From contig NW_026515669.1 of assembly GCF_025526975.1 (NCBI RefSeq), forward strand, positions 1,612,001-1,676,000: a stretch of DNA of 64,000 bases, in the 5' to 3' direction. The notes below the pieces were generated by a model. It ran no database searches. It saw only the letters and a program-made list of their open reading frames with translations, and had not been told where the DNA came from. The DNA comes from Fimicolochytrium jonesii (Eukaryota). This document shows positions 28,201 to 64,000 of this stretch, in pieces; position 1 is the stretch's first letter, and each line of letters begins with the position of its first letter. A program made the position numbers and the translations under genes.

Positions 28201-28379
28201 ACATTACATAAGGCGCCAAGCCTCACTGAAGCCACGCAAGCCCCACTGGCAGCCCAAATATAAAGCTGTCAGTCAAGCGCCCGCTGGGAAGAGCTTCTTA
28301 CTTTTTTCTTCACTACAATACACTGCTCTCATCCCTCTCAGAAGGGCCCAATATCGTCTACGTTTCCTCTGACATTACA
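25232..28379 (+). mobile_element. Internally deleted Ty3/gypsy element (family E) nested in gag
   Basis: TSD GGTAG at 25227-25231 and 28380-28384; RT/RH (WDYQGLN, YLDN, FTDSSG) at about 25250-27036; chromodomain remnant near 27610; only 16 bp of the 5' LTR remain. Confidence 0.88.
28105..28379 (+). repeat. 3' LTR of family E
   Basis: PPT GAGGGAGG followed by TGTCGGGGATATCTCA, identical to 25232-25247. Confidence 0.8.
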
Positions 28380-29577: not shown

Positions 29578-29635
29578 GAATCGTCCCGATCGCTCGGAAC
29601 GCCCCGGAGAGGTGGTACAGTCACAGAAAGAAGAG
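29578..29635 (-). repeat. Fragment of the TRIM LTR
   Basis: Reverse complement matches about 60397-60455. Confidence 0.8.
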
Positions 29636-29666
29636 CCGCCCAGGTTCAAGCCGCCCATTCATAACA

Positions 29667-30521: not shown

Positions 30522-31748
30522 AGCCCCAGCGACTGGACAACACACACCGCCCCGGGCCTCCTAACCTTGCAGCTCCTGCAACGGGAGAGGCCACCCCCCT
30601 GGTTCCCGACTCCGTTATAGCCGACACAACCCTCCTAGCCGCTGCCCATGTCGAAAACTCCGAAATTAACCCCCGCGCCATGCTTGCGCTGGGTCCTGTC
30701 AAACCCTTTAACTACCCCGTTACCATCATGGTATCATCCAGCCGCGCCCCGATACCTACCTCAGCCATGATCGACAACGGTGCCCTGTCCTGCTTCATCG
30801 ACAGAGACTTTGCCCGCAAACACCGCATCGCCCTAGTCCCGCATCAGCGTCCACTGACAATCAAACTCGTTGACGGTCAACCCAGCTCTGCTGGGCCAAT
30901 CACCCATCACACCCAACCAGTAGGCATGTGGGTCGACGACCACTTCAAAGAAATCGTCTTCCATGTCACCAAATCACCCCATGCTCCAATCCTCCTTGGT
31001 CTCCCCTGGCTCCGCCTCCACGACATTAACCTTGACTTCAAGAGCCTTTCGGTCGGTTTCCGTTGCGACTGTCAGTACCATGAATTCGCGAATTGGGACA
31101 ACTCTTCAGCACCCCCGAGCCCAGCACCCGCCAGAACCCCCGAGCCCTTGATCCGCATCCCCCAGGATGAAGTCCCCGTCGACAAAACATGGTCGATTCC
31201 AGTACCCAAGGTATCTGGCTCCAGCACCCCAGAACCGGCTCCCACGCCGCTCCGAGTCTCGTTCATCTCTGCCCCAGCCTTCCGGGTCGCAGCAAGGCAT
31301 GACCAGGTCTTTGTTGCCTACGCCAACCCTGCGAAACCCGATCTTCCGGCCTCGCCTAGCCCCAGTAACCCCCCGACACCCGAGAAAGACATCAAAGACT
31401 TCCTGCCCCCCGAGTATCAAGACTTCGCCGACGTTTTCGAAAAGAGAAATGCTGACACTCTCCCCAAGCACCGGCCCTACGACTGTCCAATCGATCTGGA
31501 AGAAGGCAAGCAGCCACCTTTCGGCCCGATCTACAGCCTCAGCGAACCAGAAATGAAGGCACTCTGCGAATACCTCGAAGAAAACCTCGCCAAAGCATTC
31601 ATCAAACCCACAAAGTCCCCTGCCGGTGTGCCAGTCTAATTCGTGAAGAAAAAGGACGGTTCTCTCCGCCTCCGCGGCGATTATCAAGGCCTGAACAGCA
31701 TCACGGTGAAGAATTGCTACCCCCTGCCCCTGATCAACGGCATCATGG
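30494..31748 (+). pseudogene. pol: pol of family B, 5' half (PR, RT start), interrupted by the endogenous virus
   Basis: ORF 30680-31639 with MIDNGA; premature [13 protein letters not shown] breaks at 31748 and resumes at 56893. Confidence 0.9.
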
Positions 31749-31792
31749 TGTCACAGTCCACCCATCTTATATAAGATGGGTGGACTGTGACA
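31749..31792. repeat. Perfect 44-bp terminal palindrome
   Basis: TGTCACAGTCCACCCATCTTAT|ATAAGATGGGTGGACTGTGACA. Confidence 0.97.
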
Positions 31793-31874
31793 GGTACCAT
31801 AGTCAGTATTGAGACTGGACTGACTATAAGTTCACTTTGATAGGAACCATAGTCCGTTACGGGTCTTGTTACCC

Positions 31875-32000
31875 TAATTGAAGACCGCATTAATTGAAGA
31901 CCACACTAATTGAAGACCGCATTAATTGAAGACCACACTAATTGAAGACCGCACTAATTGAAGAGCGCACTAATTGAAGACCGCATTAATTGAAGACCGC
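31875..32000. repeat. 16-bp tandem repeat TAATTGAAGACCRCAY x8 (x6 at 56673-56766)
   Basis: Direct count in both TIRs; the last unit is partial. Confidence 0.92.
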
Positions 32001-32700
32001 TCCACGCGTCTCCTGTGACTGCAAAAAGTTCAAGACCAATTTCCGACGCGGGTTTAACGCGTCTCCGATGCACAAGTCATTAAACTCTGCAAGTCAATCA
32101 CGTGACCGCCCATGTGACACTGCACGTGACATAATAGGCTCAACGAGTCACTTTCAGTCGCGCCTGTCGAACACACCGTCACTCCTTACGTCAGCCCTTT
32201 TCCACACAAGTCCGCCGTTGCCCATCCCTACGCAAGTGGATCCAACAAAGAACCAAGTGAGGTCCACCCAAATATCCTCTCACCTCTCCATACATCGAGT
32301 CAATAACGTCGCAAGTCGTAACTAACCCCTCCACAAGTTATCGAATAGGTGGAAAAGTGACTTTTCAAACCAATGATGAACAACCGGAAAAACTAACGCA
32401 TGTACCTCATCCCCATCACATCATCTTTACCCAGATTCATTCATTCTCTCATAGGGTTTCAAAAGTCACTTTTCCACTTACTCCATAAATTATCGTAACA
32501 AATAAGAAAAACCTTTATCAATCCCCTCCACTCATCGAAACAAGTGACTTTCCAAATCACAAAAGTCACTTGATACCCCCCAAAACTCACTTGACACAAC
32601 TCTTATCGATATCCTCAATGTTTATATAAACACCGATTCCGCCCCTTGTGCATCCCCCGTACATTCGCTACTTCTCTCATCAACACTTCATTCTCCTAAC

Positions 32701-33481: not shown

Positions 33482-33769
33482 TTGCCATGTTCAGACAGAC
33501 GAGCCCTGTGTCGGTTGCTGGAAAGCGTCCGTGGCAAATCAAACCAGATGGTCTATGTGAAGCGTGACGAGACGAACAGTGAACTTTTCCGAACGATATA
33601 TGAAATTTGTACAAATAGAAAGCCAAAATTCAAAAAAGCGTTTCTCTTTGGGAATGGTTACCTCGGCCTCTGTTGGAGTAAAGACAGAGGCAGTCGCATT
33701 ATCGTGGGCAGTGATATAAACCGGCAACACAGCATCCTTGAAGTGATTTTTGGAGAACCGCCGACCTAG
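33440..33769 (+). CDS. Viral hypothetical protein
   Basis: 109-aa ORF abutting the stop of the fibre gene. Confidence 0.4.
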   Translation: MVKIRTLEGITIIQLPCSDRRALCRLLESVRGKSNQMVYVKRDETNSELFRTIYEICTNRKPKFKKAFLFGNGYLGLCWSKDRGSRIIVGSDINRQHSILEVIFGEPPT

Positions 33770-42994: not shown

Positions 42995-44218
42995 TTACAC
43001 CACATCGACAGTCGCTCCAATCAAGATGGTGCGCTGGGAGTAAACCGTCGTAATCAATGAGACGTTAGTGCTAGGAGCTGGCAAAGCGTGGTGAGTAATC
43101 AAATTGATGTTGCCGTTGCTTCCAACCAAGTTCAAGGCCGATTGAGCATCTTCATCAGCACTCTGCCACGAGTAGCGAATCATAAAGTTCTTGTCATAGA
43201 AGTTGTCTAGATCCAAATCCTCACTCGCGTAAGAAGAGTTGTCGTTCATAGACAAGTTCGCAATCATTACCGCATCTTCTACTTGGAAGTCCTCCGTGAG
43301 TGGCAAACGGTAAGATCCAATTTGGTACCTCCATGACTTGAGGTTTGCAGTATCATAGATGAGACTCTTGTCCCCGCTTGTGGTAGCGTAGTCGCTGTCA
43401 TCGCGGAACCGATGAGTCAAACCGACAACGCGTGCATTGGTCAAGGGGAGAATGAAATTATTCTGTGAAGCTCCGCTGCAGACGTTAGACAATTGGGTAA
43501 CACCAACAGTGTCAATTTCCAAATACTTGCCCGCTTGGATGCCTTGCCAGAGAGTTGATAAATACAGTGCGCTAGGCGTTACCATCTGAGCCACATAGCG
43601 CAAGTTCGAGACAACAAAGTACGCACCACTGGGAAGATTAGTGAAAGCCGCTTGTGGGTTGTTGAGCGTTAGGGTTAGTTCAACGGATTGATTGGGCAAA
43701 ACGCAAATTGGAATCGGCTGACCGTTCAATGGTCTCATCGAGCCGGCAAGCAAATGATGCTTGAAATTGAACGTTCCGGTGGAATTCTTGAAGGCATCTT
43801 TGTTGCCTGCGCCTTCGTTGTATTTGAGATACTTTCGTTTCTCGACTTCAACAGTTTGGTAAGAGTCTGCAACGAACTGCGGCATGTCCTCAATTTCATC
43901 TACCACTTTCCCGCCCATCTTAACATTCAATGTGCGGAAACAAGCCATGGCGCCGATTTGTGAAATCTCCGCAGTTGTAAAAGGCGAACCATCGGCGTTG
44001 CGGACTTCAATCTTTCCAGACAGGTAGGAGCGCTGAGGACGCAGGAAAGACGAGTTGCTATCAACAGTAATCTTGATGGCATTGCCGGGAGAGCGAGAGT
44101 CAAAATACTCCTTGATACTTCGGTAAATCGCGATGTTCTCTGACAGGGCGTCGCTATGCATTGAAAACTGGCGACTCGCATAGATCCAGTTCGAAGGCAC
44201 AACAGGATTCGTAGACAT
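42995..44218 (-). CDS. Major capsid protein (double jelly-roll, PLV type)
   Basis: 407 aa, beta-rich; SPGNAIKI..FLRPQRSYLSG..FRTLNVKMGGKVVDEI pattern typical of PLV MCPs; clustered with penton and ATPase. Confidence 0.82.
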   Translation of the reverse strand: MSTNPVVPSNWIYASRQFSMHSDALSENIAIYRSIKEYFDSRSPGNAIKITVDSNSSFLRPQRSYLSGKIEVRNADGSPFTTAEISQIGAMACFRTLNVKMGGKVVDEIEDMPQFVADSYQTVEVEKRKYLKYNEGAGNKDAFKNSTGTFNFKHHLLAGSMRPLNGQPIPICVLPNQSVELTLTLNNPQAAFTNLPSGAYFVVSNLRYVAQMVTPSALYLSTLWQGIQAGKYLEIDTVGVTQLSNVCSGASQNNFILPLTNARVVGLTHRFRDDSDYATTSGDKSLIYDTANLKSWRYQIGSYRLPLTEDFQVEDAVMIANLSMNDNSSYASEDLDLDNFYDKNFMIRYSWQSADEDAQSALNLVGSNGNINLITHHALPAPSTNVSLITTVYSQRTILIGATVDVV

Positions 44219-44788: not shown

Positions 44789-45538
44789 TTAAACGACCAA
44801 ATCCATCGGGTCATCATAGATACCGAGTACTATTACAACCGGCGCACTTGGCTTGATGACCTGGAGGGAACCCGAGTCAACAATCTGGAAATCCACTTGA
44901 TTCAAGGTGGTGTCTTCCGAGCGGTGGAAATTGTCGCTCGGGTTGATCCAACTGAGGACATCATTGAATGAATCGGGCGAGATTGCAGCGAGAACGTTCA
45001 GGTCGGAGTTAATCCCAGACGCGTAAACGATGGCACCGTTAGTTTGCAGAGTCCGTGACGTAATGAGAATGGGTTGGGACGCGCTGAGATTCAACGGGTT
45101 AGGAAATGTGATGCTGTTCGCGTATCCCGTTTCATTCGCCTTATCAATGCCCAGTTGAAGGAAAGCGGTGGAGCCCCGACTCCCTCCTACGATTTTGAAA
45201 GTCTTGCCTCCACTTGAAGAGACCCGCAAACGCCGAGTCGTCTGGTCGTAATCAACCGTATAATTCTGAGTACCGGCTGCTGTAAGAGCGCCTGCGAGAG
45301 CGCTGATGATACTTGTCGAGTCATAGGTTCCCGAAGGCAATGTTGCTTTCTTCAGGTTAGAGTCACCGTTCTCTGCAAACATCACCACATTGTTTGTGGA
45401 GCTTGTGGCATCCCAATTCTGAAGAAGCGAAACCGAAACGATACGCCATGCGTAACAGGGTATGGTCTTTTGAAGGCGGAAGGTCGGCTCGTTTAGAGAC
45501 GGAAGCGTTCCGGTATTTAGAATCAGCTCACGATACAT
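44789..45538 (-). CDS. Minor capsid protein (penton, single jelly-roll)
   Basis: 249 aa; TLPSGTYD..I..AL..AL motif, YDQTTRRL, C-terminal VDFQIVD..VVIVL. Confidence 0.78.
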   Translation of the reverse strand: MYRELILNTGTLPSLNEPTFRLQKTIPCYAWRIVSVSLLQNWDATSSTNNVVMFAENGDSNLKKATLPSGTYDSTSIISALAGALTAAGTQNYTVDYDQTTRRLRVSSSGGKTFKIVGGSRGSTAFLQLGIDKANETGYANSITFPNPLNLSASQPILITSRTLQTNGAIVYASGINSDLNVLAAISPDSFNDVLSWINPSDNFHRSEDTTLNQVDFQIVDSGSLQVIKPSAPVVIVLGIYDDPMDLVV

Positions 45539-45583: not shown

Positions 45584-46321
45584 ATGGAAGTGAAGAGGAC
45601 AAAGATTCCAAAGGAGTTTGAAATTTCCATCAAAGACAAGACGCCCGAGGGGTACCCCAGGAAATTCTTTACATTGACACTTGTTGGCTCTTCGAGAGCG
45701 GGCAAGACCACCTGCATCATAAATTTGATTGAGAATATCGCACGGTGTTACTCGAATGTAATCATATTCTCTCCAAGTGCTGACGCTCCGGAGTGGACAG
45801 CCTTGAGGAAGTTCGATAACGTCTTTATGTCTAATCTGGTGTCTAATAACATTCTACACAAGCTCTTTGAAAAGCAGAAGAAGCTTTATCAACAGGACAA
45901 GACAAAGAATCACATGTGTTTAATACTGGATGATTTCGGTTTGCTTGCCAAGGAAAAGGGCCTCGATATAGGCAAAGAACCAAGAGAAGCGGAAATCGTA
46001 TCGAGCGGTTGCAGGCAGATGCTTGATTTATTGTATAGCCGAGCTCGACATAACGGCATGTCGGTTCTCGCCAGCTTTCATGACTGTAAGCAGATGAGCC
46101 CTTTACAAAGAGTGAACTCCACTCACTGGATTTTGTATCGCCTCAATGAAGCGCAATACAGTAAGATAGCCCCTGAGATTCGGTGTCACCTAAGTGAGAA
46201 AGAATTTATAGGCAAGGCGGAAGAGTATACTAAGCAGCCTTTCCACGCTTTGTATGTCGATCTAAAAGCCCCGAAGAACGAAGATGTATTCAAAGAGCTC
46301 AAACCGGCGGCAGAGGTCTAG
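45584..46321 (+). CDS. A32/FtsK-HerA family DNA packaging ATPase
   Basis: Walker A GSSRAGKT, Walker B LILDD, RARH arginine motif. Confidence 0.9.
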   Translation: MEVKRTKIPKEFEISIKDKTPEGYPRKFFTLTLVGSSRAGKTTCIINLIENIARCYSNVIIFSPSADAPEWTALRKFDNVFMSNLVSNNILHKLFEKQKKLYQQDKTKNHMCLILDDFGLLAKEKGLDIGKEPREAEIVSSGCRQMLDLLYSRARHNGMSVLASFHDCKQMSPLQRVNSTHWILYRLNEAQYSKIAPEIRCHLSEKEFIGKAEEYTKQPFHALYVDLKAPKNEDVFKELKPAAEV

Positions 46322-46479
46322 TCATCGAACCGCACTATAACGTATCCTTCCTTTTCGCTGTATTCAAAGTCGAACGGCTCGGGTTTCGGGGCCTTCTTCT
46401 TTTTCTTCTTCTTCTTTTTCACCGGTTGAGTCTGGGTCTGTGCGTCTTTTTGATCGATCAAAAGTTCCTCTGGAAGCAT
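46318..46479 (-). CDS. 53-aa poly-lysine peptide
   Basis: Hand translation: MLPEELLIDQ..PVKKKKKKKKKAPKPEPFDFEYSEKEGYVIVRFDD; abuts the ATPase stop. Confidence 0.45.
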   Translation of the reverse strand: MLPEELLIDQKDAQTQTQPVKKKKKKKKKAPKPEPFDFEYSEKEGYVIVRFDD

Positions 46480-46888: not shown

Positions 46889-47095
46889 TCGACCCGTTAT
46901 TTTTGAGTGTTTTTGCAAGCGATTTTGTACTGTTGTTCGCAACCCGTTCCCTCGAAGGAACACAAACCAACAGCCCAGTGGTGCTACCTCCTGACTAATG
47001 AACGGTGCCAGTGACTCCATAGTCGCTGGCAATTTTCAAAGTGTTTTTGATCGATCAAAAAGTCTCCCGAAAAATATTCCCTCCACAATGTAACT

Positions 47096-48385
47096 ATGGC
47101 TCCTCCTTTAACTAGAGCACAGGAAGAGAAGCTAAAGACTCTTTTTTATTCGGAAAAAAACTTTTTCGGTAGAGACCGACTCTATTTTCTTTTGCAGCAA
47201 GACCCGCGAAATGATATATCACGACGACAGGTGATGAACTGGCTTGCTAAACAACCCATAGCACAAAAGTTTCGAAGACCTGTGAGAGCCACAGGTGTGC
47301 GAGCAATCGTATCAACGGCTCTCGGTTCATTTCAATGTGATACGATGGACATGTCTGCAGACAGCTACAGAGGATTCGGTGCAATCTTCTCCATGATTGA
47401 CACGTTTTCCAGACGTTTGTATGCACGAGCAATCACAGGAAAGACTGCCGCAGAATGTACGCGCGCCTTGAAGGAAATTTTAGATGAGAACCCACACATG
47501 GCGTTCCACCGCGTAGTCTCAGATAACGGTGGAGAATTTCAGAATGTATTCGATGAGTACCTGCAGGAACTTGAGGTACCGCATAACGTCACGCGTCCCC
47601 ATCAGCCTTGGTCAAATGGAATAATCGAGCGGAGTAATGCCTCGTTAAGAAAACAACTGTCGATTTATATGGAAACCACAGGCAACAAAGATTGGCCGGC
47701 TGCTTTGCCTGATTTAGTTAAACGGTTGAACTCGACCTTTAATGCAACAACGAAACATTCGCCCAATGAGTTAGAAGAGACGTCTCCGGACAGCGAAGAA
47801 CACACTAAGGCTGGATCAAACATAATGAAGCGAGCTGGAAAATCTGTTAATGTCCGTGGTGCAACGACTCTACAAGTTGGGGATACGGTTAGGAAAGTGT
47901 TTCAATATTCGGGCACAAATATTCAAAAACCATCAAGGACGGGATACTTTGCGCCAGAAAAGTTCGAGATTGTAGCAGTTGTCCCATCCCCTTATGCAAA
48001 CCAGCTTCCATCATACAAGCTGAAGAACAGCGCGGGTGTTGTGGAAAAGGGTTTGTTCGCTCGAAGTCAACTCTTGTTGGTGCCCAGTGAAGGTATCCGG
48101 ATCGACCCGCCTCGACCTGTTGAGAATGTAGGCGAGCCACCCGTGGAGGAACCGGTAGAGGAACCGGTTGCGCCAAGACGTTCGGGAAGACTTAACCCCG
48201 AGAGGGAGTATGAAGTCGAATACATTCGAGACAAGAGAACGCGCAGAGTAGGTAGACGAACATTCATTGAATATCTAGTAAAATACAAAGACTATCCTAT
48301 CGAACAAAGTACATGGGAAAAGGTCTCTAATATCAATGCGCCTAATCTTATTCGGGAGTTTGAGAGTCAGAGGAATCGACGCTAA
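47096..48385 (+). CDS. Retroviral-type (rve) DDE integrase with C-terminal chromodomain
   Basis: FQCDTMD, SDNGGEF, NGIIERSN; EYEVEYI..EYLVKYKDY..STWE. Confidence 0.92.
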   Translation: MAPPLTRAQEEKLKTLFYSEKNFFGRDRLYFLLQQDPRNDISRRQVMNWLAKQPIAQKFRRPVRATGVRAIVSTALGSFQCDTMDMSADSYRGFGAIFSMIDTFSRRLYARAITGKTAAECTRALKEILDENPHMAFHRVVSDNGGEFQNVFDEYLQELEVPHNVTRPHQPWSNGIIERSNASLRKQLSIYMETTGNKDWPAALPDLVKRLNSTFNATTKHSPNELEETSPDSEEHTKAGSNIMKRAGKSVNVRGATTLQVGDTVRKVFQYSGTNIQKPSRTGYFAPEKFEIVAVVPSPYANQLPSYKLKNSAGVVEKGLFARSQLLLVPSEGIRIDPPRPVENVGEPPVEEPVEEPVAPRRSGRLNPEREYEVEYIRDKRTRRVGRRTFIEYLVKYKDYPIEQSTWEKVSNINAPNLIREFESQRNRR

Positions 48386-49457
48386 GTTTACGCTTTTTGT
48401 TACTGTTGTAACGATTATACAAGGAACTCTCTTCCTCGTTGTGATGATTGTTAAGAGCTAACAGCCTGCTAATAGGGTCTTGCAGCCCGTTCCTACGCAG
48501 GTGAGTAATCTGCGTTTTCCTGCAACTTCGAACACCGTGCTTCTGTCCACACGCAGCTTCAAATGACTTTTGTATATGGGTATTGAAATTGTTTGGTGTG
48601 AATGGATTTCCCTTTGAATCGATAAACACATGAGCGCCTTCCGGGCGAAACCGCTTGATGAATCGAATGAGAACGTCAGAGACAAACGCAGGGTCGATGA
48701 CATCCTGAAACGACTCCGGTGCGTCTACAAAATGTTGCAGAAATGACTGAACCTCGTCCTGTCTGTGTTTCTTGTTTACAGATTGTCTGTCAAACTTCCT
48801 ATCATTCCATAGAATGGTAGGCCTTCCGGTAGCAGCAAAGATAAAGATGTTATCCTTTTTCCAATCGATTCCTTCGCGGTCGAATATCTTGAGATTTCCA
48901 AAGTTGCCTCGGACGTTGTAGAAACAAGCGACAAACAATCCGATGATGCCGTCTTGCAAAAGTTCAATCTGATGCTTGCTGGGGTGAGGAAGGTCGAATA
49001 TGTAGAACAGGCTATCGCAGTATTTGCGCATCTCGTCAACAACTCCCTTCCAATTAGGAATCAATTCATCGTCGGATAATGTCTCTCCATTAGAACGGGC
49101 TGTGTTGTAAGGCTGTTTCAATCGACGTTGCTCATCAGCGAGTTTCTTCCTGACCTCCTCCCATTGGTCGAATGAAATACCGAGGGGTTCGTGACCGCAA
49201 TTTCTGAAGATACGATGAACTTTCCCAATGAAATCCGCCATACTAGAGTCAGCAATTTTCCCGTCCTTTAAACGTGCAGATTGCTTTGACTGAGTGATGA
49301 TAGCTTTAATGTCGTGCAGGTTGGATAGGGATTCCAAGGAATCGAAGATGCCGCGCTTCTGGAATTCGGTCACATCTTTCAAATCGCCTGTATAAGATTT
49401 GGTATCCTTCGTAAGGAACTCGCCGAGGTTGGCCGTTTTCAGATAGAATTCAGCCAT
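48348..49457 (-). CDS. Tyrosine recombinase-family protein (possible telomere resolvase)
   Basis: VRGNFGNL (R), NDRKF (K), VFIDSKGNP, GVRSCRK (R), NHHN..SLYNRY (H..Y) in YR order. Confidence 0.65.
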   Translation of the reverse strand: MAEFYLKTANLGEFLTKDTKSYTGDLKDVTEFQKRGIFDSLESLSNLHDIKAIITQSKQSARLKDGKIADSSMADFIGKVHRIFRNCGHEPLGISFDQWEEVRKKLADEQRRLKQPYNTARSNGETLSDDELIPNWKGVVDEMRKYCDSLFYIFDLPHPSKHQIELLQDGIIGLFVACFYNVRGNFGNLKIFDREGIDWKKDNIFIFAATGRPTILWNDRKFDRQSVNKKHRQDEVQSFLQHFVDAPESFQDVIDPAFVSDVLIRFIKRFRPEGAHVFIDSKGNPFTPNNFNTHIQKSFEAACGQKHGVRSCRKTQITHLRRNGLQDPISRLLALNNHHNEEESSLYNRYNSNKKRKLSVDSSDSQTPE

Positions 49458-49553
49458 CTTTGTTACTGATTATAGAAAATAAACAATGACAGAACCCATA
49501 GTTAGGGCGTTTATATAAACATTCGCGTGCATCGGCTATCGATAAGAATTGCA

Positions 49554-52500
49554 TCATATGTGTTTCAAGATATGACAGATGGTCTCCACTGACATCGCGT
49601 TGTCTAAGAGACTTAACCTTGCGGCACTAGAGATTCCGTGCGTGTAATTATCAGGAAACCCCATTGCACGCTCTTTGTCTATGCACGTCAGTCGCTTATC
49701 GTTCGGTGCTTGCCGTTTATGAAACGGCGCAGGCTGAATTCGGAAATTCGCCCAATACCATCTCTTCCTAGACAAACCGTTGAAATCCGCATCGTCCAAC
49801 ATTATCGGCTTCACTCCTAAAGCCTCGCTTATCGTTGCGGTCGGCTCCGTGTTTGCAAACAAAAAGTAGCGAGGGTGACATGCCCTCAAAATCTTATCGA
49901 ATCCATTCACATTTCCCGCGCCGATGAGAAATTCGAATACAGGCAGAACATTGCATTCGAGTTTCTCAATATCTCCATAGTTCGTTTGCCGAATGTGGTG
50001 TATCTCGTAAATCTTTACAGCTCGCGGGTTTAACTCTGAATAACCGACGCAGTGGGCGTTCTCAAACACCCGATTCATAGCAAGGTCTGCTCCCCCGATT
50101 CCGGCAGAAGCGGAAAAGTAGCGCAAGGGTGACTTCTTCTCCACGTCGAGCAACGACGGCGTGCAAGCGAAGCTGTTCACTCCGGGAATGAATCCATGCG
50201 TTTGGAAAGCCGCGACGAACTTCTTCGCAAGCGGAAATCCAGACTCGCTGTCAAGATACGCGACTGTTAATTTCCCCTTCCGCAGGTGACACAGCATCGC
50301 GACGGAGTACAGCTCATCGGTGCATTCTGACACGATTCCGACAGCGCGTATCACTTCACCGCTTTCCAAATCGTTTTTCGCTTTGTCTAAGAAATCTTCT
50401 CCTTCGATACAAGTCACTTCATTCTCTGCGGCAAAGTCCGTTATCGCTTTGTGTATGCGGTCTTGCTTCTTAACCGGAGACTTCTTCGGAGGAGGAGGTG
50501 TATCTTCGTCCTCTTCTTCTTCTTCGCCTGACTCGACATAGCTTTGCCTTGCGCGCTTTCGCAAATTGTGCGTATGTTCGCGCACGTCTTTGGGAAGAAT
50601 CGTGTTCCCTTCAAAGACATCGCAGAACGCTTTTTGTATATGCAGATTCGCCTCTCGTGCAACGTATATAATAACCCTCGGATTAGGGTCATCACTTATC
50701 GCTTTCTTGTGCGGATTACGCTCTAACGCCGCTCTCGACAGGTGATTGTTTGATCGATGGAATTGCGCATATTGGTCGCATCGCCGTATGAGCGGGAAGC
50801 TCCAGTTTCGCCTGCCATCCATAGGCAATAAGAATATCGCATGGTCACATTCGCCTTTATCAATCATCTCCATCACCCGTGCGATGAACTTTGGTGTAGG
50901 GTTCTCCGACTTCTTCATGTGCTTTGACTGTTCGTCAGACAAAGCCCTAGCTGGCGGATTGCAGAGAATCACACTCGGTCGCCCTGTCCATTCGCTTGGT
51001 TCCCGTTCAGCCTCATCATCGTCTGCGGGAATGCACCAGCGTTCTAATCCAAAGGCGTCCACAAACGAACCGTCGGGCTGTACCCCGTAGTAGTATTTGC
51101 AATTGATTGTCGCGCAAGGATTACTGCAAACGTCGAGGTCTATCGAGTCATGAAAGCACTTGACAAATTGGTCTATCTTGTCACAGATTTCCGGAGCTGC
51201 GTTGTACTCGTTCTCCCCTAGCTTTGTCCTAGACCGTTTGCAGTGAATCCATTTCGACCTTTCTACCGAGCTCTCTTCTTCCTCTGACTCGGATTTTTCG
51301 GACTCTGCCTCCTCCGACATAACCTTTTTGCGGACGTCTTTTGTCAGATACGTCTTTGGTAGCGTGCCGAAAATCTCGCAGAAGGAACGCTCAATATCCA
51401 TGTGCTTTTCTCTTGACAGATAAATCAAGCAGCGTGGGTTCGGGTCATCGACGACAGGTTTCGCTTGCGGTGAGCGTTCTAAGGCCGCCTTCGAGAGATG
51501 ATTGTTGAAGCGGTTAAAAATTAAAAGTTGGTCACATCTTTCAACGAGAGGCGGGCACCATGACCTTCGCAAATCCATCGGCACAAGGAGAAGCAGATGG
51601 TCACATTCTTCGTCATCCAGCATCTGCACAAGCCTATCAAGAAACTTCGGAGTTGGGAACTCATTTTCCATACGGCTAGCCTGCTCTTCATTGAGCGGCC
51701 TCGCAGGCGGGTTACACACGATAACGCTTGCTTTGCCTGTCCATTCCCGGGGGTGCAATGCCGCTTCGTCTTCGTCGGCTGGGATACACCAACGAGGCAA
51801 ATCGAATGCATCGATGAACGTCCCGTGGGGTTGAACACCAAAGTAATGCTTACAAACGAGCTCCGAACTGGGATTCGAGCATACATCCAAGTCGATGCTA
51901 TCGTGGAATGTTTTCACAAAGTCGTCTAACAACTTGCAAATGATTGGTGGCGTATTGTATTCGTTTTCACCTAACCGCCTTCGTGCGGAAAGTGAATGCC
52001 TCCACTTCCCGATATCGGTGACCGGTTTGCCTGACGCCAGTCTCGCTTGATCGATCAACTCTTCTTCGTCTTCGTCCATGGGAAACTCATCCTCATCAAC
52101 TTCAGGCAAAGACGCTCCTGTAGGCGAGGCTTCCGAAGTCAAATCAATGGCATTTGAGTCGACCTCGGGTTCCTTGAAAGGTGCACTGAGCCTGCATGCC
52201 ACTACATTCTGTCGTCCTTCGTAGAATTCCACATTTCTGTCCCAAATCGTCTTCAGAGGCAAACGCAATTTCTTATGCAGCTTCAGCAAAGCGAGACAGA
52301 GTGCGGCATTGCAAGGCAGCTCATCGGTTGGGACGCCTTCTTTCTTCAACCGCAAGAGAACGTCTCCGCAGTTTGAGATATTGTAGAACGTCCTGCGCGT
52401 CACGTTGTGAAACTTCTTGACATATTCCTCGAGCGCTGGCGCCTCGTTCTTGTAGAGCCGGTGCTCCACAATGGTATTAACGGCGATACATGTCGTAAGG

Positions 52501-52580
52501 AAATCCTCACTCTCTTCGGGGTTGATGTGCAGGTATCGCTGGTTGATTTTGCTCTCCTGTATCTGTAGCGGTGAATCCAT
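49554..52580 (-). CDS. Multidomain DNA methyltransferase-like protein: two phage-Dam-like domains plus a degenerate C5-cytosine MTase
   Basis: Duplicated NEYN.P..IDLDVCSNP..CNPPAR; C-terminal SAGIGG, SELN, YGDI, RKRWYW, ERAMGFPDNYT. Confidence 0.78.
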   Translation of the reverse strand: MDSPLQIQESKINQRYLHINPEESEDFLTTCIAVNTIVEHRLYKNEAPALEEYVKKFHNVTRRTFYNISNCGDVLLRLKKEGVPTDELPCNAALCLALLKLHKKLRLPLKTIWDRNVEFYEGRQNVVACRLSAPFKEPEVDSNAIDLTSEASPTGASLPEVDEDEFPMDEDEEELIDQARLASGKPVTDIGKWRHSLSARRRLGENEYNTPPIICKLLDDFVKTFHDSIDLDVCSNPSSELVCKHYFGVQPHGTFIDAFDLPRWCIPADEDEAALHPREWTGKASVIVCNPPARPLNEEQASRMENEFPTPKFLDRLVQMLDDEECDHLLLLVPMDLRRSWCPPLVERCDQLLIFNRFNNHLSKAALERSPQAKPVVDDPNPRCLIYLSREKHMDIERSFCEIFGTLPKTYLTKDVRKKVMSEEAESEKSESEEEESSVERSKWIHCKRSRTKLGENEYNAAPEICDKIDQFVKCFHDSIDLDVCSNPCATINCKYYYGVQPDGSFVDAFGLERWCIPADDDEAEREPSEWTGRPSVILCNPPARALSDEQSKHMKKSENPTPKFIARVMEMIDKGECDHAIFLLPMDGRRNWSFPLIRRCDQYAQFHRSNNHLSRAALERNPHKKAISDDPNPRVIIYVAREANLHIQKAFCDVFEGNTILPKDVREHTHNLRKRARQSYVESGEEEEEDEDTPPPPKKSPVKKQDRIHKAITDFAAENEVTCIEGEDFLDKAKNDLESGEVIRAVGIVSECTDELYSVAMLCHLRKGKLTVAYLDSESGFPLAKKFVAAFQTHGFIPGVNSFACTPSLLDVEKKSPLRYFSASAGIGGADLAMNRVFENAHCVGYSELNPRAVKIYEIHHIRQTNYGDIEKLECNVLPVFEFLIGAGNVNGFDKILRACHPRYFLFANTEPTATISEALGVKPIMLDDADFNGLSRKRWYWANFRIQPAPFHKRQAPNDKRLTCIDKERAMGFPDNYTHGISSAARLSLLDNAMSVETICHILKHI

Positions 52581-53490: not shown

Positions 53491-56022
53491 GTGAGTATGA
53501 CCGACATTGATGATAAGTTTGACCTTGAGCCTTACAAGAAGCTAAACGACAAAACGGTTTTGTGGAAGGTCGAATTCATGAACGAGAATAGACTCAAAGT
53601 TCTGCTTCAATCTCCATTCTTAGACGCGAAGCTCAAGAAAGGCTTGCAATCGATGGTCAAATACAACCGCGTTGGTTTGAACCTTTACCGAACGGAGTAC
53701 GCTTATTCTTCCCACTCGGTCGACGACAGTGGGCGTCTCTATGCTCGAAGCAGGTCGCTTCAAAACTTGCCGGCAAATGTTAAAAAAAATCCACCTTTCC
53801 GCCAGTACCTTGCAAGTGGAGAATACCATGACATCGATCAAGCAAACTCCATGCCTACCATTTGGGCGCATCTCTGTGCTTCACATTCGATTGTTTGTCC
53901 CAATCTAGATACTTACATCAATCAGCGTCCGACGATTCTCCAAGAAAGAGGCATCGACAAGCAGGTGGTTATGGAGTACCTTACCTACGAACCTCGAATG
54001 ATAGCAGACCCCTTCTTCCGACAGATTCACGATACACTTTACCGAACCTTGGTGCCGCTTCTAAAGGAGAAGTACAACCACATCTGGGAGAAAGTCATGA
54101 AATCTCGCGAGGATAAAGTTAAACGCAATCGAGGCGGTAGTTTCCTCTGTCAAGTCGCCCACACTATTGAAACTAAAATCAGCCTCGCTGTTGACAAATT
54201 CTTCACGAATCGAGGTTGGTCTGTCGATGTGCATGTTTTTGACGGAGTGATGATTCGTAAACGACCTGATACGAGCATGACCCCCGAACTGCTAGAGGAA
54301 TGTAACAAATACGTCTCCGACCAAACCGGAATCGCTGGTGTGAAGCTCGTTGAAAAAAGCCTCGATTTCGAAGCTCATCCTCAATTGCCGTTGCTCGCAA
54401 TCCCCCAAGAAGATGTAAATCCCGTTAAACCAGCAGATGGCAATGCAGTAGATTTTCGTGACCTTAAGTGCATCAAGGGTTGGGAGAACTTCGACTTCAG
54501 GCGTATTTTTAGCCCGACTCACAAGAATAGCGCGGAGTGGTACGTAGAACAACGCCACGCGTCAATCATGAAACATTCGAGCGGGCTGTTGTTTATACTC
54601 GGCAAAGACAATATTTGGAGGAAATTTGACAGCGTGAAAGCGAGTGACCTCAATTTGCAAATCGCTGATAACTTGATTAGCAGCTTCGAGAAATTGATTG
54701 ACGATGCTACCAACGAACTTCAACATGGTAATGTCGACATATTGAAGGCCAAGCTCAAAACGTTTCGTCCCGAAGTCGAAGGCACCGCATATTCTGGAAG
54801 TGTCGCGTATAATGTCGAGCGACTTTGCAAAACCGACGACAAATGCATTGACCTGTTCCTCTCCAAACCTTACTTGCTGCCGTTCAACGATGGGGTGTAC
54901 GACTTGGTCAAGGGAGAATTCCGACCTATTGAACCCACAGATTACATTCTCTTCACTTGCGGATATAACTTCCCAAAAACGTCAAACAAAGAAATCCGAA
55001 AGAAGATTACCGACTTCTACACCTCCATCTTCCAGACTGAGGAGCTCACCGAATATCGACTCGCTACAGTGGCGCGTTGCCTCTACGGAGAAATCGTCGA
55101 AGAAATCTTTGTGATTCAGAAAGGCAAGGGACGAAACGGGAAAGGAGCTGAAACAACCCTTATTCAAAATGTTTTTGGTAACTTGTTCTACTGCCTCGAT
55201 AAGCGCAACTTCACTCGTGACCAGCAGGACGTGGACCGACCGAATTCACAAGTGTACAATCTCTTCGGTAAACGATATCTGACAACCAGTGAGACCAATA
55301 AGAACGACCGCTTCCTCTCTGAGGTATTCAAAGGATTCTCGGGAAACGATTATATCAGTGTGCGCACGCTTAACGGCAAACCTATCACTTTCCGCGTCAC
55401 AGGTTTGCTGAATGTTCAAACCAACGAGGACCCTGTTTTTGATAAAGTAGACGTGGCGTTGGGAAAGCGCACCCGTATGCAGGAGTACCCCTTCACCTTC
55501 ACAAACATTGAGCTAATGGAGACAGACGATACCGAACTTGATGCCATGGAAATTGATGAAGACGAGAGCGAATATAAGGCAATCGAGAAACAGGGTGACG
55601 AGAACTTGAAACGCGACTTCAAGTCTGAGGCGTACCGCGATGAAGGAATGCTTCTGCTGATTTCGTTGTTTAGAGAGATGTTCATTCAAAGCGATGGGTC
55701 CCTCAGCATGAAGATTGACGTCCCCGATGAGGTGCTCGCATTTACAAAGCAGAATCTTGCTACAAGCCTTGCTGCTGCAAAATGGCTCAAGTTCCATTAC
55801 AAGATTACCGGCGATTCTACAGATGTTGTGAGGAAGAAAGAACTGTATTGCGAATACGCACAATCCGTGTTTGACGTGAAGAAGAGGATTGGCAAAACGC
55901 AATTCTACAAGGAATTAGAAGGGATTCAAATCAAAACCGGCATCCGTAATGGTTATCAGGTGTATGTAGGCTTGAAGAGAACGGCAAGGTCGAATGAAGG
56001 TGACGAGTTCTTTGATGTTTAA
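53491..56022 (+). CDS. TVpol (PolA-derived primase-polymerase) fused to a D5-like SF3 helicase
   Basis: SGRLYA..SLQNLP, DIDQANS, VFDGVM; LLPFNDGVYDL (D5_N), GKGRNGKG Walker A, TSE, QTN. Confidence 0.85.
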   Translation: MSMTDIDDKFDLEPYKKLNDKTVLWKVEFMNENRLKVLLQSPFLDAKLKKGLQSMVKYNRVGLNLYRTEYAYSSHSVDDSGRLYARSRSLQNLPANVKKNPPFRQYLASGEYHDIDQANSMPTIWAHLCASHSIVCPNLDTYINQRPTILQERGIDKQVVMEYLTYEPRMIADPFFRQIHDTLYRTLVPLLKEKYNHIWEKVMKSREDKVKRNRGGSFLCQVAHTIETKISLAVDKFFTNRGWSVDVHVFDGVMIRKRPDTSMTPELLEECNKYVSDQTGIAGVKLVEKSLDFEAHPQLPLLAIPQEDVNPVKPADGNAVDFRDLKCIKGWENFDFRRIFSPTHKNSAEWYVEQRHASIMKHSSGLLFILGKDNIWRKFDSVKASDLNLQIADNLISSFEKLIDDATNELQHGNVDILKAKLKTFRPEVEGTAYSGSVAYNVERLCKTDDKCIDLFLSKPYLLPFNDGVYDLVKGEFRPIEPTDYILFTCGYNFPKTSNKEIRKKITDFYTSIFQTEELTEYRLATVARCLYGEIVEEIFVIQKGKGRNGKGAETTLIQNVFGNLFYCLDKRNFTRDQQDVDRPNSQVYNLFGKRYLTTSETNKNDRFLSEVFKGFSGNDYISVRTLNGKPITFRVTGLLNVQTNEDPVFDKVDVALGKRTRMQEYPFTFTNIELMETDDTELDAMEIDEDESEYKAIEKQGDENLKRDFKSEAYRDEGMLLLISLFREMFIQSDGSLSMKIDVPDEVLAFTKQNLATSLAAAKWLKFHYKITGDSTDVVRKKELYCEYAQSVFDVKKRIGKTQFYKELEGIQIKTGIRNGYQVYVGLKRTARSNEGDEFFDV

Positions 56023-56059: not shown

Positions 56060-56892
56060 GATATCGATAAGAGTTGTGTCAAGTGAGTTTTGGGGGGTAT
56101 CAAGTGACTTTTGTGATTTGGAAAGTCACTTGTTTCGATGAGTGGAGGGGATTGATAAAGGTTTTTCTTATTTGTTACGATAATTTATGGAGTAAGTGGA
56201 AAAGTGACTTTTGAAACCCTATGAGAGAATGAATGAATCTGGGTAAAGATGATGTGATGGGGATGAGGTACATGCGTTAGTTTTTCCGGTTGTTCATCAT
56301 TGGTTTGAAAAGTCACTTTTCCACCTATTCGATAACTTGTGGAGGGGTTAGTTACGACTTGCGACGTTATTGACTCGATGTATGGAGAGGTGAGAGGATA
56401 TTTGGGTGGACCTCACTTGGTTCTTTGTTGGATCCACTTGCGTAGGGATGGGCAACGGCGGACTTGTGTGGAAAAGGGCTGACGTAAGGAGTGACGGTGT
56501 GTTCGACAGGCGCGACTGAAAGTGACTCGTTGAGCCTATTATGTCACGTGCAGTGTCACATGGGCGGTCACGTGATTGACTTGCAGAGTTTAATGACTTG
56601 TGCATCGGAGACGCGTTAAACCCGCGTCGGAAATTGGTCTTGAACTTTTTGCAGTCACAGGAGACGCGTGGAGCGGTCTTCAATTAATGCGGTCTTCAAT
56701 TAGTGCGCTCTTCAATTAGTGCGGTCTTCAATTAGTGTGGTCTTCAATTAATGCGGTCTTCAATTAGGGTAACAAGACCCGTAACGGACTATGGTTCCTA
56801 TCAAAGTGAACTTATAGTCAGTCCAGTCTCAATACTGACTATGGTACCTGTCACAGTCCACCCATCTTATATAAGATGGGTGGACTGTGACA
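56060..56892 (-). repeat. Right terminal inverted repeat (833 bp) ending in the same 44-bp palindrome (56849-56892)
   Basis: Reverse complement of the left TIR. Confidence 0.95.
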
Positions 56893-59552
56893 CATGGATC
56901 GTTTGCGCGGCGCCCGCCGTCTCACCAAGATCGACCTCCGCGGCGCTTATACCCTCTTACGCATGCGCCCGGGCGATGAATGGAAGACCGCCTTCCGCTG
57001 CCGCTATGGCCTATTCGAATACAATGTCATGCCCTTTGGACTCAGCAATGCTCCTGGCGTCTTCCAGTACCTGATGAACGACATGTTCCGCGACAGTCTC
57101 GATGTGTTTGTTGTCGTCTACCTCGACGATATCCTGATATTCTCCAAGAACCCCGAAGATCACCCCAAACATGTCCGCCAAGTCTTGTCCCGCCTCCGAC
57201 AGCATGGGCTGTACGCCAAACCAGAGAAGTGCGAATTCAACCGCGAATCCGTTGAGTTCCTAGGCTTCCCCATCTCCGAGAAAGGCATCCAGATGGACCC
57301 CAAGAAGATCGCTGCCATCCCGGATTGGGAACCTCCCAAGACTGTCAAAGGCGTCCAACGGTTCCTTGGCTTTGCCAACTTCTATCGCCGATTCATCCAA
57401 GGTTATTCCAAGATCGCTCCCGCTCACAGCCCTGACCCGGAAAGACATCCCGTACGCCTGGACACCCGCCGCAAACACCGCCTTCGAGAACCTGAAGAAA
57501 GCATTCACCACCGCCCCCATCCTTGCTCACCCTGACCCACAGAAGCCCTTCGTCGTCGAAACTGACGCCTCCGACTTCGCTCTTGGCGCAGTTCTCCTCC
57601 AACCTGACCAGGACAATCAGCTCCACCCCGTGGCCTTCCACTCTCGCAAATTCACGGCCGAAGAGATCAACTACAAGATCTACGACAAGGAACTTCTGGC
57701 CATCCAAGACTCCTTTGCCCAGTGGCGACACCATCTCATTGGCGCCCGTCACAAGATCACCGTTTACTCCGACCATAAACACCTTCAGTACTTCATGACC
57801 ACCCGCACCCTGAACCGCCGCCAAGCCCGCTGGTCAATATTCTTCTCGGATTTTGACTTTGTCATTACCTATCGCCCCGGTTCCCAGCAGCGCCAAGCCG
57901 ATGCCCTCTCCCGACGCTCCGAACATGAGCTAAAAGAGGGGGAAGAAGCGTTCCGCTCCCAGGCAACCACAATTTTGACTCCGGAACGCCTCCGACTCGC
58001 CGCAGCCTACCTCACACCCATGGATACCACGCTGCTTGACAAGATTAAGGCCGCCCAGGCCTCTGATCCCCTCGCTAAGACCATTCGCGAAAAGCTCAAG
58101 ATACCCCTCGCCCAACGAACCGAGGAAACCCAAGATCGTATCAAGCGGTTCTCAGATGAAGATGGGGTCCTGCTGCACAATAACCTTGTCTATGTCCCCC
58201 CAAATGAGCTCCGAGCTGAAGTCTGCCACGACATGCACGATACACCCCTAACTGGCCACTTCGGGATGTCCAAGACGCTTGAACTCGCCTCCCGCAACTA
58301 CTGGTGGCCCAGCCTGTGGCGCTTCGTCAAGGCCTACGTCAAGTCCTGCGATACCTGTAGCCAAGCGAAATCCAGTCGACACAAACCATATGGCCTACTC
58401 CAGCCCAACAGTATCCCTACCCGCCCTTGGGGATCTTGGTCCCTGGACTTTATCACCGGTCTGCCTCCCGTGGACGGGTACGACTCCATCCTGAACGTCA
58501 ACTGTCGCCTCACCAAGATGGCCCACTTCATTGCCTGCAGCGAGTCAGAATCCGCCGAATCCACCGCCGACCTAGTCTTCCACAACATCATCCGTCTCCA
58601 CGGCCTCCCCGACGACGTCATCTCTGACCAAGGACCCCAGCTTAAGTCCCGGTTCTGGCGTCGACTTCTCGAACTCCTTGGGGCAAAAGCCAACCTCTCT
58701 TCGGCCTTCCACCCCCAGAGCGATGGCCAGACGGAACGCACCAACCAGATCCTGGAGCAGTATCTCCAATGCTTTTGCAACCACCAACAGGACAACTGGA
58801 AGCAGCTTCTGTCGTCCGCCGAGTTCGCCTACAACAACACCCACCAGTCCGCCTCCCAGACCACCCCCTTCTACGCCAACAAGGGTCTCCACCCCCGCTT
58901 CAGTTTCGCGGCCTCTGCTACCTCCAAATCCGTCAACCCCGCCGCTGAAGCCCGCGCTAAACAAATCAGGGAAGTCCATGAACAGCTCGCCCTCGAGCTC
59001 AAGGAAGCCCAAGATCAAATGAAGCGCTACGCCGACGCTAAACGAATTCCTGGACCAAACTTCAAGCCTGGTGACCACGTCTGGCTCCTCCGAAAAAACC
59101 TCCAGACGACCCGGCCCTCTCAGAAGCTCAACCATCGCGAGATTGGGCCATTTCCCATCGTTGAAAAGATCAATGCAGTCACCTACCGGCTCAAGCCCCT
59201 GCCTACGTACAAAATCCACAATGTCTTCCATGTCTCGCTCCTCGAACCCCGCTTCACCATCCCCGAACAACACGAACCCGAACCCGCGACCCCAGAGACC
59301 GTTGAGGGTCAAGAAGAGTGGGTTGTCAAAGCCATCCTTGACTCTCGCATCCATTGTCGTCGCCTTCAGTACTTGGTCAAATGGCAGGGCTGGCCTGACT
59401 CCGAGAACACCTGGGAGCCTGTGGAACACCTCACCCATACCGACGCACTTCTCCAGGACTTCCACAGCGCGTACTCCAACAAGCCTTCCTCTGTCCCCGT
59501 AGCACCTCCTCTGCAACCACACCAAACTCGACGCCGCTGCCGCCGCCGCTAA
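56893..59552 (+). pseudogene. pol: pol of family B, 3' half (RT, RH, IN, chromodomain); one frameshift near 57420
   Basis: YLDD, ETDASD, WSLDFI, DGQTERTNQ, EWVVKAILD..YLVKWQG..NTWEP. Confidence 0.92.
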
Positions 59553-59564
59553 AGAGAGGGGTGA

Positions 59565-60103
59565 TGTTATGGACGACGCGCCCATACCATAAGCTTACCT
59601 ACTGACAGCCGCCAATGTCAACCGCCAAATGTCAAACGCCAATGTCAATGTCAATGTCAGTGTCAATGTCAGTGTCAATGACAATGTCAATGCCACTCCC
59701 CCTCTCTCCTCTCATTTCGCCAATGCTCTTGCAATATCGCCACTCCTCCTCTCTCCTCTCATTTCGCCAATCCCTCCTCGGCTTCTCCACACCCCCCACT
59801 ACTTCCCCATAGCCAGCAGCTGTAGCAATGCTCTCTACGCTCGCCACGCACGCTCTAGGAGCATAGCTGGCGCCCCCCCAGTCCCCTCTTGTTGTTGTTG
59901 TTCTCTGATCTGCTGGGTTGCCTATCTATAAATAGCCGGCCTCTCTTCGTCCATTCCCTTCCTCCCCAGCAGATCAACACCGGTTCTTCTCATCTCCTGT
60001 TCTAGTCCTTGTTTCTTGTTTCGCCAACACAATCTCTGGTCGCCTATCACACTCGCCCTGTCTTCTCTACTTTGCTTCCGCCCCCGTCGTCAAGATCATA
60101 ACA
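59565..60103 (+). repeat. 3' LTR, family B
   Basis: PPT AAAGAGAGGGG; TGTTATG..CATAACA termini; TATAAATA at about 59927. Confidence 0.93.
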
Positions 60104-63407: not shown

Positions 63408-64000
63408 TCACACAGTATCCTTATCACCGCTCACTGGCAAGTGATTCTGTTTGCATTGCTCCCTGAGTGCTGCCAGCGTGGACGCGTAAAGCCCAGTCTT
63501 TGGCTGTTTCCTCCCTTTGTTGCTGTTGCTGCGTTTGCCTTTCATGACATAAAAGTCATACCAACGCTCCTTCCTTGTTGTATCCGGCGCCAACTCTCCT
63601 TCTACCATGAAATCCCAGAAATAATAAAGGCTCAGAGCACCGAAGGCACAAAGTTGAACGTCACTATGGCGCATGAGCGCTTTGTACTCTGCTCGACCGA
63701 CTCGATGCTCTTTGCCTTGCCACTGCGTGAGACTCAATAAATAGCAATCCGTGGGCCCCTCGCCTTCCATTTCCCGCAACCATGTATCGGCAAGTTGGAT
63801 GAATCGCACGCTCTGCCCGCGCCCGAAGGTTGAATGCTGCATATAAAAGCAAGCCCGGTTTCACAAGCCGACGCCAACATGATGGTCTTTCATCCACCAG
63901 TCAGATAATTTCCGTTGATGCTCGCTTGTGTATTTGTTGAGCAGCGTGCCTTTCCCGCGGTCTTCGTATGTCGCTTGCCGGACGTTGTGTCGATCCTGTG
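63408..64000 (-). pseudogene. CryptonF/Ndc10-domain tyrosine recombinase fragment
   Basis: In-frame YEDRGKGTLL ... GRGQSVR ... QGKEHRVGRAEY..MRH.DVQLCAFGALSLY; TGA at 63861-63863. Confidence 0.8.

What the first reader, a model, noticed from the sequence alone, without database searches (positions are those of the whole stretch)
47096..49457. Convergent, overlapping DDE integrase and tyrosine recombinase: separate entry and exit enzymes?
Seen: both genes are intact and overlap by 38 nt at their 3' ends. The TG..CA ends and 5-bp TSD fit the rve integrase, leaving the tyrosine recombinase without an integration role. Inference: it resolves the 44-bp palindromes into hairpins for excision and replication.
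Basis: partly seen in the sequence, partly recalled or inferred. Interest (0 to 1): 0.8.

Follow-up and report, generated by a model that had tools for sequence, protein, structure and literature searches.

The report
Fungal virus with two DNA-joining enzymes
A 25-kb virus-like element inserted in what is likely a chytrid fungus genome carries a retrovirus-type integrase back to back with a second, Cre-like recombinase that would likely cut the element out again at its mirror-symmetric ends; the enzyme pair and such ends are each already known from viruses of protists, but this division of labour is untested.

Summary
An rve+chromodomain integrase (47096-48385, +) and a divergent tyrosine recombinase (YR; 48348-49457, -) are both intact and overlap by 38 nt. 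They lie in a 25,144-bp Polinton-like element (31749-56892) with TG..CA ends, a CATGG duplication, near-identical TIRs and a perfect 44-bp palindrome at each tip. The element has no protein-primed polymerase. The overlap is ordinary. The YR keeps R-K-x-R-H-Y across its family, whose named members are all from chytrid fungi. Its predicted fold is closer to XerH, Tn1549 Int and Cre (Z 11.7-14.2) than to the protelomerases TelA, TelK and ResT (Z 4.8-7.7), so it is not a protelomerase family member. Best model (0.4): the integrase puts the element in; the YR recombines the two palindromes Cre-style to release a circle or resolve dimers, leaving a solo palindrome. A second integrase for a giant-virus genome (0.25) is the published rival. 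The rve+YR pair (Cafeteria, Halocafeteria virophages) and terminal palindromes (Halocafeteria) are in print. Co-occurrence across relatives could not be tested because no related DNA was retrievable.

The parts
47096..48385 (+). rve (DDE) integrase with C-terminal chromodomain, 429 aa; D82, D143, E178
   Evidence: Pfam rve and Chromo; residues; 24% identical to the host gypsy integrase, no RT or LTR beside it
48348..49457 (-). divergent tyrosine recombinase, 369 aa; R183, K221, R313, H338/H339, Y347
   Evidence: family alignment; AF2 model pLDDT 86; fold matches XerH, Int, Cre
48348..48385 (.). 38-nt convergent overlap of the two 3' ends, in the YR's unconserved tail
31749..31792 (.). left terminal 44-bp perfect palindrome (TG..CA, TATATA centre)
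56849..56892 (.). right terminal 44-bp perfect palindrome, identical to the left
31749..32613 (+). left TIR (about 865 bp) with about 8 copies of a 16-bp repeat
56060..56892 (-). right TIR (about 833 bp), identical to the left but for two fewer 16-bp units
31744..31748 (+). left target-site duplication CATGG, inside a Ty3/gypsy pol gene
56893..56897 (+). right target-site duplication CATGG
53497..56022 (+). primase-polymerase/SF3 helicase fusion (841 aa); N-terminal part likely PolA-like TVpol (motifs recalled, no profile hit); the element's only replicase, no pPolB
   Evidence: Pfam D5_N E 6.9e-9
42995..44218 (-). likely major capsid protein (407 aa)
   Evidence: Pfam Capsid_N E 0.1, weak; 14 homologues, 9 named, all from chytrids
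45584..46321 (+). A32-like packaging ATPase
   Evidence: Pfam Pox_A32 E 1.3e-6
44789..45538 (-). possible minor capsid protein (249 aa); assigned from position and recalled resemblance only
   Evidence: ORF; no Pfam hit
49554..52580 (-). 1008-aa protein with a C5 DNA methylase domain
   Evidence: Pfam DNA_methylase E 1.6e-9

Best explanation
The element is an intact endogenous Polinton-like virus carrying an rve integrase, which likely made this insertion, and a separate tyrosine recombinase that likely recombines the two terminal 44-bp palindromes in Cre/Xer fashion to release the genome, rather than sealing them into hairpins. Shown: both genes, the catalytic residues, the Xer/Cre-like predicted fold, the ends, the duplication, and the absence of a protein-primed polymerase. 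Inferred step 1: the free form holds one palindrome per junction, either as a circle junction or as two hairpins. The integrase would cut after the CA that closes the palindrome on each strand, join those 3' ends to host DNA 5 bp apart, and repair would copy the palindrome in full to both tips, which is the structure seen. Inferred step 2: because a palindrome reads the same both ways, the two tips are also direct repeats. A four-strand YR exchange at their AT-rich centres would excise a circle with one palindrome and leave the chromosome unbroken, with a solo palindrome between the two 5-bp duplications. The same reaction would split replication dimers made by the primase-helicase.
For: Ends and duplication fit rve; the cryptophyte survey ties TSDs to rve and not to YR (PMC12220804, passages). 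Catalytic set conserved: R183 25/26, K221 26/26, R313 25/26, H338 23/26, H339 24/26, Y347 23/26, the misses being mostly truncated rows. Fold: XerH Z 14.2 (rmsd 4.3, 288 aligned), Tn1549 Int 13.3-13.5, Cre 11.7-13.1, lambda Int 11.4-11.8. The palindrome has two inverted arms around an AT-rich centre and occurs only at the two tips. Across small eukaryotic DNA viruses YRs correlate with PolA/AEP replicases and DDE integrases with pPolB, with the functional link called elusive (bioRxiv 10.64898/2026.10.13.758929, passages). Terminal palindromes go with non-pPolB replication (bioRxiv 10.64898/2026.07.28.741278). Tyrosine enzymes can recombine fully symmetric telomere junctions (PMC13221069, passages).
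Against: Nothing here shows that the YR binds the palindrome; any YR would give the same fold result. Halocafeteria PLV subtype 4 has palindromes and an RVE and, by the text, no YR. A symmetric core gives no direction, so inversion would compete with excision, and a circle with a 1.7-kb inverted repeat across the junction would be unstable (inference). The His of the HxxR motif is absent (R310; S or Q in most relatives).
Confidence: 0.4

Rival explanations
1. The YR is a second integrase for another target, most likely the genome of a helper giant virus, and has nothing to do with leaving the host chromosome; the palindromes prime replication by folding back, with the rve integrase supplying the 3'-OH nick.
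For: This is the published reading of the same gene pair in mid-GC EMALEs (PMC8547959, passages) and Halocafeteria virophages. Giant viruses of zoosporic fungi are described (PMC13533422, passages). Hairpin priming needs a 3'-OH, which a YR (3'-phosphotyrosine) does not give but a DDE integrase does (established knowledge). Palindromes occur without a reported YR.
Against: No internal att-like repeat was seen beside the YR gene; the only short palindromes nearby are 12-18 bp. No helper virus is shown for this element. The published reading is itself a hypothesis.
Confidence: 0.25
2. The YR is a structure-directed genome-processing or passenger gene that travels with the primase-helicase module, like baculovirus VLF-1: it binds cruciforms or branched DNA during maturation without a defined recombination site, or it is a remnant of module replacement.
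For: VLF-1 is a lambda-integrase-family virion protein that binds cruciform DNA (PMC6669607, passages), and nudivirus VLF-1 models are among the BFVD hits (E 2.8e-3 and weaker). A pyrimidine-rich upstream motif is shared by the YR, MCP, fibre and one more gene (4 of 15, background 0.3%; pattern picked after looking). Module turnover with transient double sets is proposed in PMC11296320 (passages).
Against: The full catalytic set is conserved over 20-46% identity, which argues against a relic. The YR lies 4 kb from the replicase and next to the rve gene.
Confidence: 0.2
3. One reading: the YR works like a protelomerase, cutting the palindrome 6 bp apart at its centre and sealing two hairpins, which excises a linear, covalently closed genome and resolves replication dimers.
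For: The substrate looks right: a perfect palindrome with a 6-bp palindromic centre, as protelomerases use (PMC3558466, passages). Two point mutations switch TelA to a Cre-like recombinase, so fold does not fix the product (PMC13221069). Phaeoviruses are proposed to use a telomere resolvase on a palindrome (PMC13236599, passages).
Against: TelA Z 7.5-7.7 (rmsd 7.4-7.6), TelK 6.4-6.5 and ResT catalytic domain 4.8, against 11.4-14.2 for Xer/Int/Cre. 0 of 26 members hit Telomere_res; 5 of 26 hit Phage_integrase weakly. No Tyr at the HxxR position; His-to-Tyr spacing 8-9 against 11 in TelA. Excision this way would leave two hairpin-sealed chromosome ends (inference).
Confidence: 0.15

Closest known systems
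Mid-GC EMALEs (types 5-7) of Cafeteria burkhardae (Hackl et al. 2021, PMC8547959)
   Same: Endogenous, TIR- and TSD-flanked; rve integrase plus YR; no pPolB; long primase/helicase.
   Different: Those are mavirus-like virophages with a protease; this element has no protease hit and a chytrid-type capsid. The paper has 0 occurrences of 'palindrom' or 'hairpin' and reads the YR as a giant-virus integrase.
Halocafeteria seosinensis virophage subtypes 1, 2, 5, 6 and PLV subtype 4 (bioRxiv 10.64898/2026.07.28.741278)
   Same: Terminal palindromes next to TSDs (52 nt in subtype 5), tied to non-pPolB replication; a subset of virophages has RVE plus YR; hairpin-priming model.
   Different: There no PLV has both enzymes, and the text does not link the YR to the palindromes. 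Figures were not visible, so which YR-bearing subtypes have palindromes is unknown to me.
Simple tyrosine recombinases XerH/dif, Cre/loxP, Tn1549 Int
   Same: Two-domain fold over 270-288 residues, Z 11.7-14.2; R-K-R-H-Y set.
   Different: About 10% identity; no His in HxxR; below Pfam threshold; the candidate site has a fully symmetric core, unlike loxP (recalled).
Protelomerases TelA, TelK, ResT (TelN not among the rows)
   Same: Same catalytic fold and chemistry; perfect-palindrome substrate.
   Different: Much poorer fit (Z 4.8-7.7), no Pfam match, different active-site signature.
YR-encoding PLVs (PgVV/Gezel-14T, OLV11-like) and entomopoxvirus-associated PLVs
   Same: TVpol-helicase plus YR plus TIRs; YR action on the inverted repeats and on poxvirus hairpin dimers was suggested (PMC11296320; PMC4642659).
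   Different: Those lack rve. In a cryptophyte survey rve and YR co-occurred only through nested retrotransposons (11 PLVs and 1 virophage of 8300), whereas here the rve gene is free-standing.

Membership tests
Tyrosine recombinase superfamily | Catalytic R-K-(H)-R-H/W-Y set | tested here: met
   R183, K221, R313, H338/H339, Y347 conserved in 23-26 of 26 rows; the first His is replaced
Tyrosine recombinase superfamily | Core-binding plus catalytic domain fold | tested here: met
   XerH Z 14.2, rmsd 4.3, 288 aligned; the 22 chains with Z>=8 of 48,161 are all YR, YR-derived or topoisomerase IB
Tyrosine recombinase superfamily | Pfam Phage_integrase above gathering score | tested here: not met
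   E 0.13, 12.5 bits against 27.1; best in family E 0.016
Tyrosine recombinase superfamily | Site-specific strand exchange | not testable with these tools
   needs purified enzyme
Protelomerase / telomere resolvase | Match to the telomere-resolvase sequence family | tested here: not met
   0 of 26 members at E<=1; no protelomerase among PDB sequence hits
Protelomerase / telomere resolvase | Closest solved folds are telomere resolvases | tested here: not met
   TelA Z 7.5-7.7, TelK 6.4-6.5, ResT 4.8, all below Xer/Int/Cre
Protelomerase / telomere resolvase | TelA/ResT active-site signature (Tyr three residues before the second Arg) | tested here: not met
   R310 here; S 8, Q 8, R 3 of 26, no Tyr; signature from PMC3558466; not known to hold for all protelomerases
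Protelomerase / telomere resolvase | Palindromic target with a 6-bp palindromic centre in the replicon | tested here: met
   44-bp perfect palindrome at both tips
Protelomerase / telomere resolvase | Makes covalently closed hairpins | not testable with these tools
   needs in vitro assay or long reads of the free genome
Polinton-type rve integrase | DD(35)E core, chromodomain, TG..CA ends, short TSD | tested here: met
   one-base boundary ambiguity noted
Polinton-like virus (PLV) | MCP, minor capsid, A32 ATPase, TIRs, 15-40 kb, usually no protease | tested here: inconclusive
   ATPase and TIRs met; MCP weak by Pfam (E 0.1); minor capsid not confirmed; no protease hit among 15 ORFs; no capsid tree built
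Polinton/Maverick in the strict sense | Protein-primed family B polymerase | tested here: not met
   none among the element's ORFs of 80 aa or more

The most novel reading that the evidence does not exclude
A chytrid virus lineage has turned an ordinary Xer/Cre-like recombinase into a hairpin-telomere resolvase independently of the bacterial protelomerases, and couples it to a retroviral-type integrase that opens the same palindrome: one 44-bp site serving as entry, exit and telomere.
Probability: 0.15. Interest if true: 0.8.

Novelty: new variant of a known kind. Interest (0 to 1): 0.42.

Why it matters
How integrated Polintons, PLVs and virophages leave the chromosome, and how those without a protein-primed polymerase copy their ends, is open. 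This element offers a compact test system: a young intact insertion, one 44-bp candidate site, a 369-aa enzyme, and two predictions that separate the models (solo palindromes and circle junctions, or hairpin ends). The YR family is invisible to Pfam, NCBIfam and PHROGs at threshold, so published counts of rve plus YR elements may be too low.

Tried and rejected
No host genome is held, so solo palindromes and other copies could not be sought outside the window; inside it the palindrome arm occurs only at the two tips. No related loci were found: YR in viral contigs and metagenome contigs; MCP in viral, metagenome and genome contigs; rve in viral contigs. An 18-nt palindrome arm gave two IMG/VR matches, L001 and L002, with no palindrome and no blastn similarity to the window; rejected as chance. 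No sequencing run was listed, which is no evidence on expression. The single-sequence fold was unusable (pLDDT 37). TelN and XerC were not among the structure rows; XerD scored Z 10.1. Rejected: that the rve gene is a nested retrotransposon (24% identity to the host gypsy integrase, no RT, no LTR-like repeats). Rejected: that the 38-nt overlap signals functional coupling. The Koonin 2024 review (PMC11426020) is not held. The Halocafeteria figures and bioRxiv supplements could not be seen and may settle YR-palindrome co-occurrence. One ESM Atlas search was answered: unnamed viral clusters at 0.97 and one cluster with Phage_integrase on 16% of members. No complex prediction was run.

Full report
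Observation. They lie in a 25,144-bp element, 31749-56892. Each tip is the same perfect 44-bp palindrome, beginning TG and ending CA; the next longest perfect palindrome in the window is 18 bp. The TIRs (about 865 and 833 bp) are identical apart from two units of a 16-bp repeat, which suggests a young insertion. CATGG flanks both ends, and two uninterrupted copies of the host Ty3/gypsy element in the window match across the insertion point. The boundary is ambiguous by one base (a 3-bp duplication with GT..AC ends also fits), but TG..CA coincides with the palindrome edge.

The overlap is ordinary. It covers the YR's low-confidence tail, which is 22 residues after the catalytic Tyr against 4-10 in the four closest relatives. 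63% of 12-codon windows in the element's six frames are stop-free (coding frames included), and another convergent pair overlaps by 4 nt.

The element. A Pfam scan of 15 ORFs gave rve plus Chromo, a Pox_A32 ATPase, a D5-type primase-helicase, a C5 methylase and a weak capsid hit, and no protein-primed polymerase or protease. The N-terminal part of the replicase has motifs I recall as PolA-like (TVpol); no profile confirmed that. Of 14 capsid homologues, 9 are named and all 9 come from chytrid fungi. It is best called a Polinton-like virus of a probable chytrid host; no capsid tree was built. The rve gene is free-standing, 24% identical to the host gypsy integrase, with no RT or LTR beside it.

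The recombinase. Pfam, NCBIfam and PHROGs do not name it at threshold. A full HMMER search found 29 relatives. I aligned 25 of them with the query, leaving out P0012, P0027, P0028 and P0031 as short or repetitive. R183, K221, R313, H338, H339 and Y347 are kept in 25, 26, 25, 23, 24 and 23 of 26 rows; the position of the HxxR His is variable. I looked up 25 of the 29; 11 carry names, all from chytrids in six genera. The model built on this alignment (pLDDT 86) matches XerH best (Z 14.2, rmsd 4.3, 288 aligned), then XerA 13.7 (rmsd 14.6), Tn1549 Int 13.3-13.5, Cre 11.7-13.1 and lambda Int 11.4-11.8. TelA scores 7.5-7.7 (rmsd 7.4-7.6), TelK 6.4-6.5 and the ResT catalytic domain 4.8. Foldseek gave the same order; the best viral models are uncharacterised giant-virus proteins. 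That settles family, not product: two mutations switch TelA into a Cre-like recombinase (PMC13221069, passages).

Mechanism. The integrase most likely made this insertion (about 0.9; ends, duplication, and the rve-TSD link in PMC12220804, passages). A full palindrome at both tips follows if the free genome has one palindrome per junction, as a circle junction or as two hairpins, and the integrase cuts after the closing CA on each strand; repair then copies it to both sides (inference). The integrated structure cannot tell circle from hairpin. For exit, the two palindromes are also direct repeats, so a Cre/Xer-type exchange between them would release a circle and leave an unbroken chromosome with a solo palindrome between the duplications; the same reaction would split dimers. 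I rank this first (0.4) because it fits the fold and spares the host a break. A hairpin-making YR (0.15) fits the substrate but not the fold or active-site signature. A second integrase for a giant-virus genome (0.25) is the published reading. A VLF-1-like processing or passenger role (0.2) remains. None is shown.

Against a YR-palindrome link. Halocafeteria PLV subtype 4 has palindromes and an RVE, and the text says no PLV there carries both enzymes. The direct co-occurrence test failed for lack of data: nine protein-based collection scans returned no related locus, and no genome or sequencing run was available.

What is in print. The rve plus YR pair without pPolB is described for mid-GC EMALEs (PMC8547959, passages; supplement list only) and for some Halocafeteria virophages; terminal palindromes with a hairpin-priming model are in the same preprint (10.64898/2026.07.28.741278, passages and parts 2-3 of 5, figures not seen). 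YR-PolA/AEP correlation: 10.64898/2026.10.13.758929 (passages). YR action on inverted repeats and poxvirus hairpin dimers is suggested in PMC11296320 (passages). PLVs in chytrids are noted in PMC7805220 (passages and supplement rows) and 10.64898/2026.06.19.733378 (passages). Also read in passages: PMC4642659, PMC3558466, PMC13533422, PMC13236599, PMC6669607, 10.1101/2022.07.28.501842. I found no paper assigning a PLV YR to terminal palindromes: 0 papers held 'Polinton-like', 'tyrosine recombinase' and 'protelomerase' together, and searches gave only the works above or listings I did not open. The library lacks most subscription journals.

Earlier scan notes, unchecked by me, report 48- and 50-bp terminal palindromes and a tail-to-tail integrase plus YR pair in other chytrid-type elements. 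They are leads that the arrangement recurs, not evidence.

Verdict. Real, intact and mechanistically interesting, but a recombination of two published features in a new host group. New here are the PLV (not virophage) context, a chytrid YR family that profile libraries miss, and testable footprints. New variant of a known kind; interest 0.42.

Noticed in passing
window 40087-40098, 46450-46461, 47047-47058, 52047-52058: The 12-bp palindrome TTGATCGATCAA occurs 4 times, all inside the element, against 0.27 expected; two copies are intergenic, upstream of the 105-aa ORF and of the rve gene. Possible regulatory or methylase site.
   Followed up: partly
45 nt upstream of ATGs at 49457, 44218, 44741, 40767 (all - strand): A T-rich TTTCT..TA(A/C)T motif is shared by the YR, MCP, 160-aa ORF and fibre gene (4 of 15; background 0.3%), not by rve; pattern chosen after looking. 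May mean the YR is expressed with the capsid genes.
   Followed up: partly
window 32619-32632 and 49509-49522: TGTTTATATAAAC preceded by CTTATCGATA lies upstream of both the first ORF and the YR; possible shared promoter.
   Followed up: no
window 49554-52580 (-): The 1008-aa methylase ORF has, before its C5 domain, two internal repeats with motifs that I recall as N6-adenine methylase-like; no profile hit for them.
   Followed up: no
window 33766-40767 (-): 2333-aa low-complexity ORF with 66-bp tandem repeats, likely a fibre or attachment protein; no Pfam hit.
   Followed up: no
window 31874-32000 and 56673-56767: 16-bp tandem repeats in the TIRs, 7.9 against 5.9 copies; candidate origin iterons and the only difference between the TIRs.
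   Followed up: partly
window 15400-31750 and 56890-60100: The element sits in a cluster of several near-identical Ty3/gypsy copies with chromodomain integrases, some in tandem at about 4.6-kb spacing.
   Followed up: no
window 63408-63842 (-): ORF fragment that I recall as resembling Crypton/NDC10-type YR proteins of the host; not tested.
   Followed up: no
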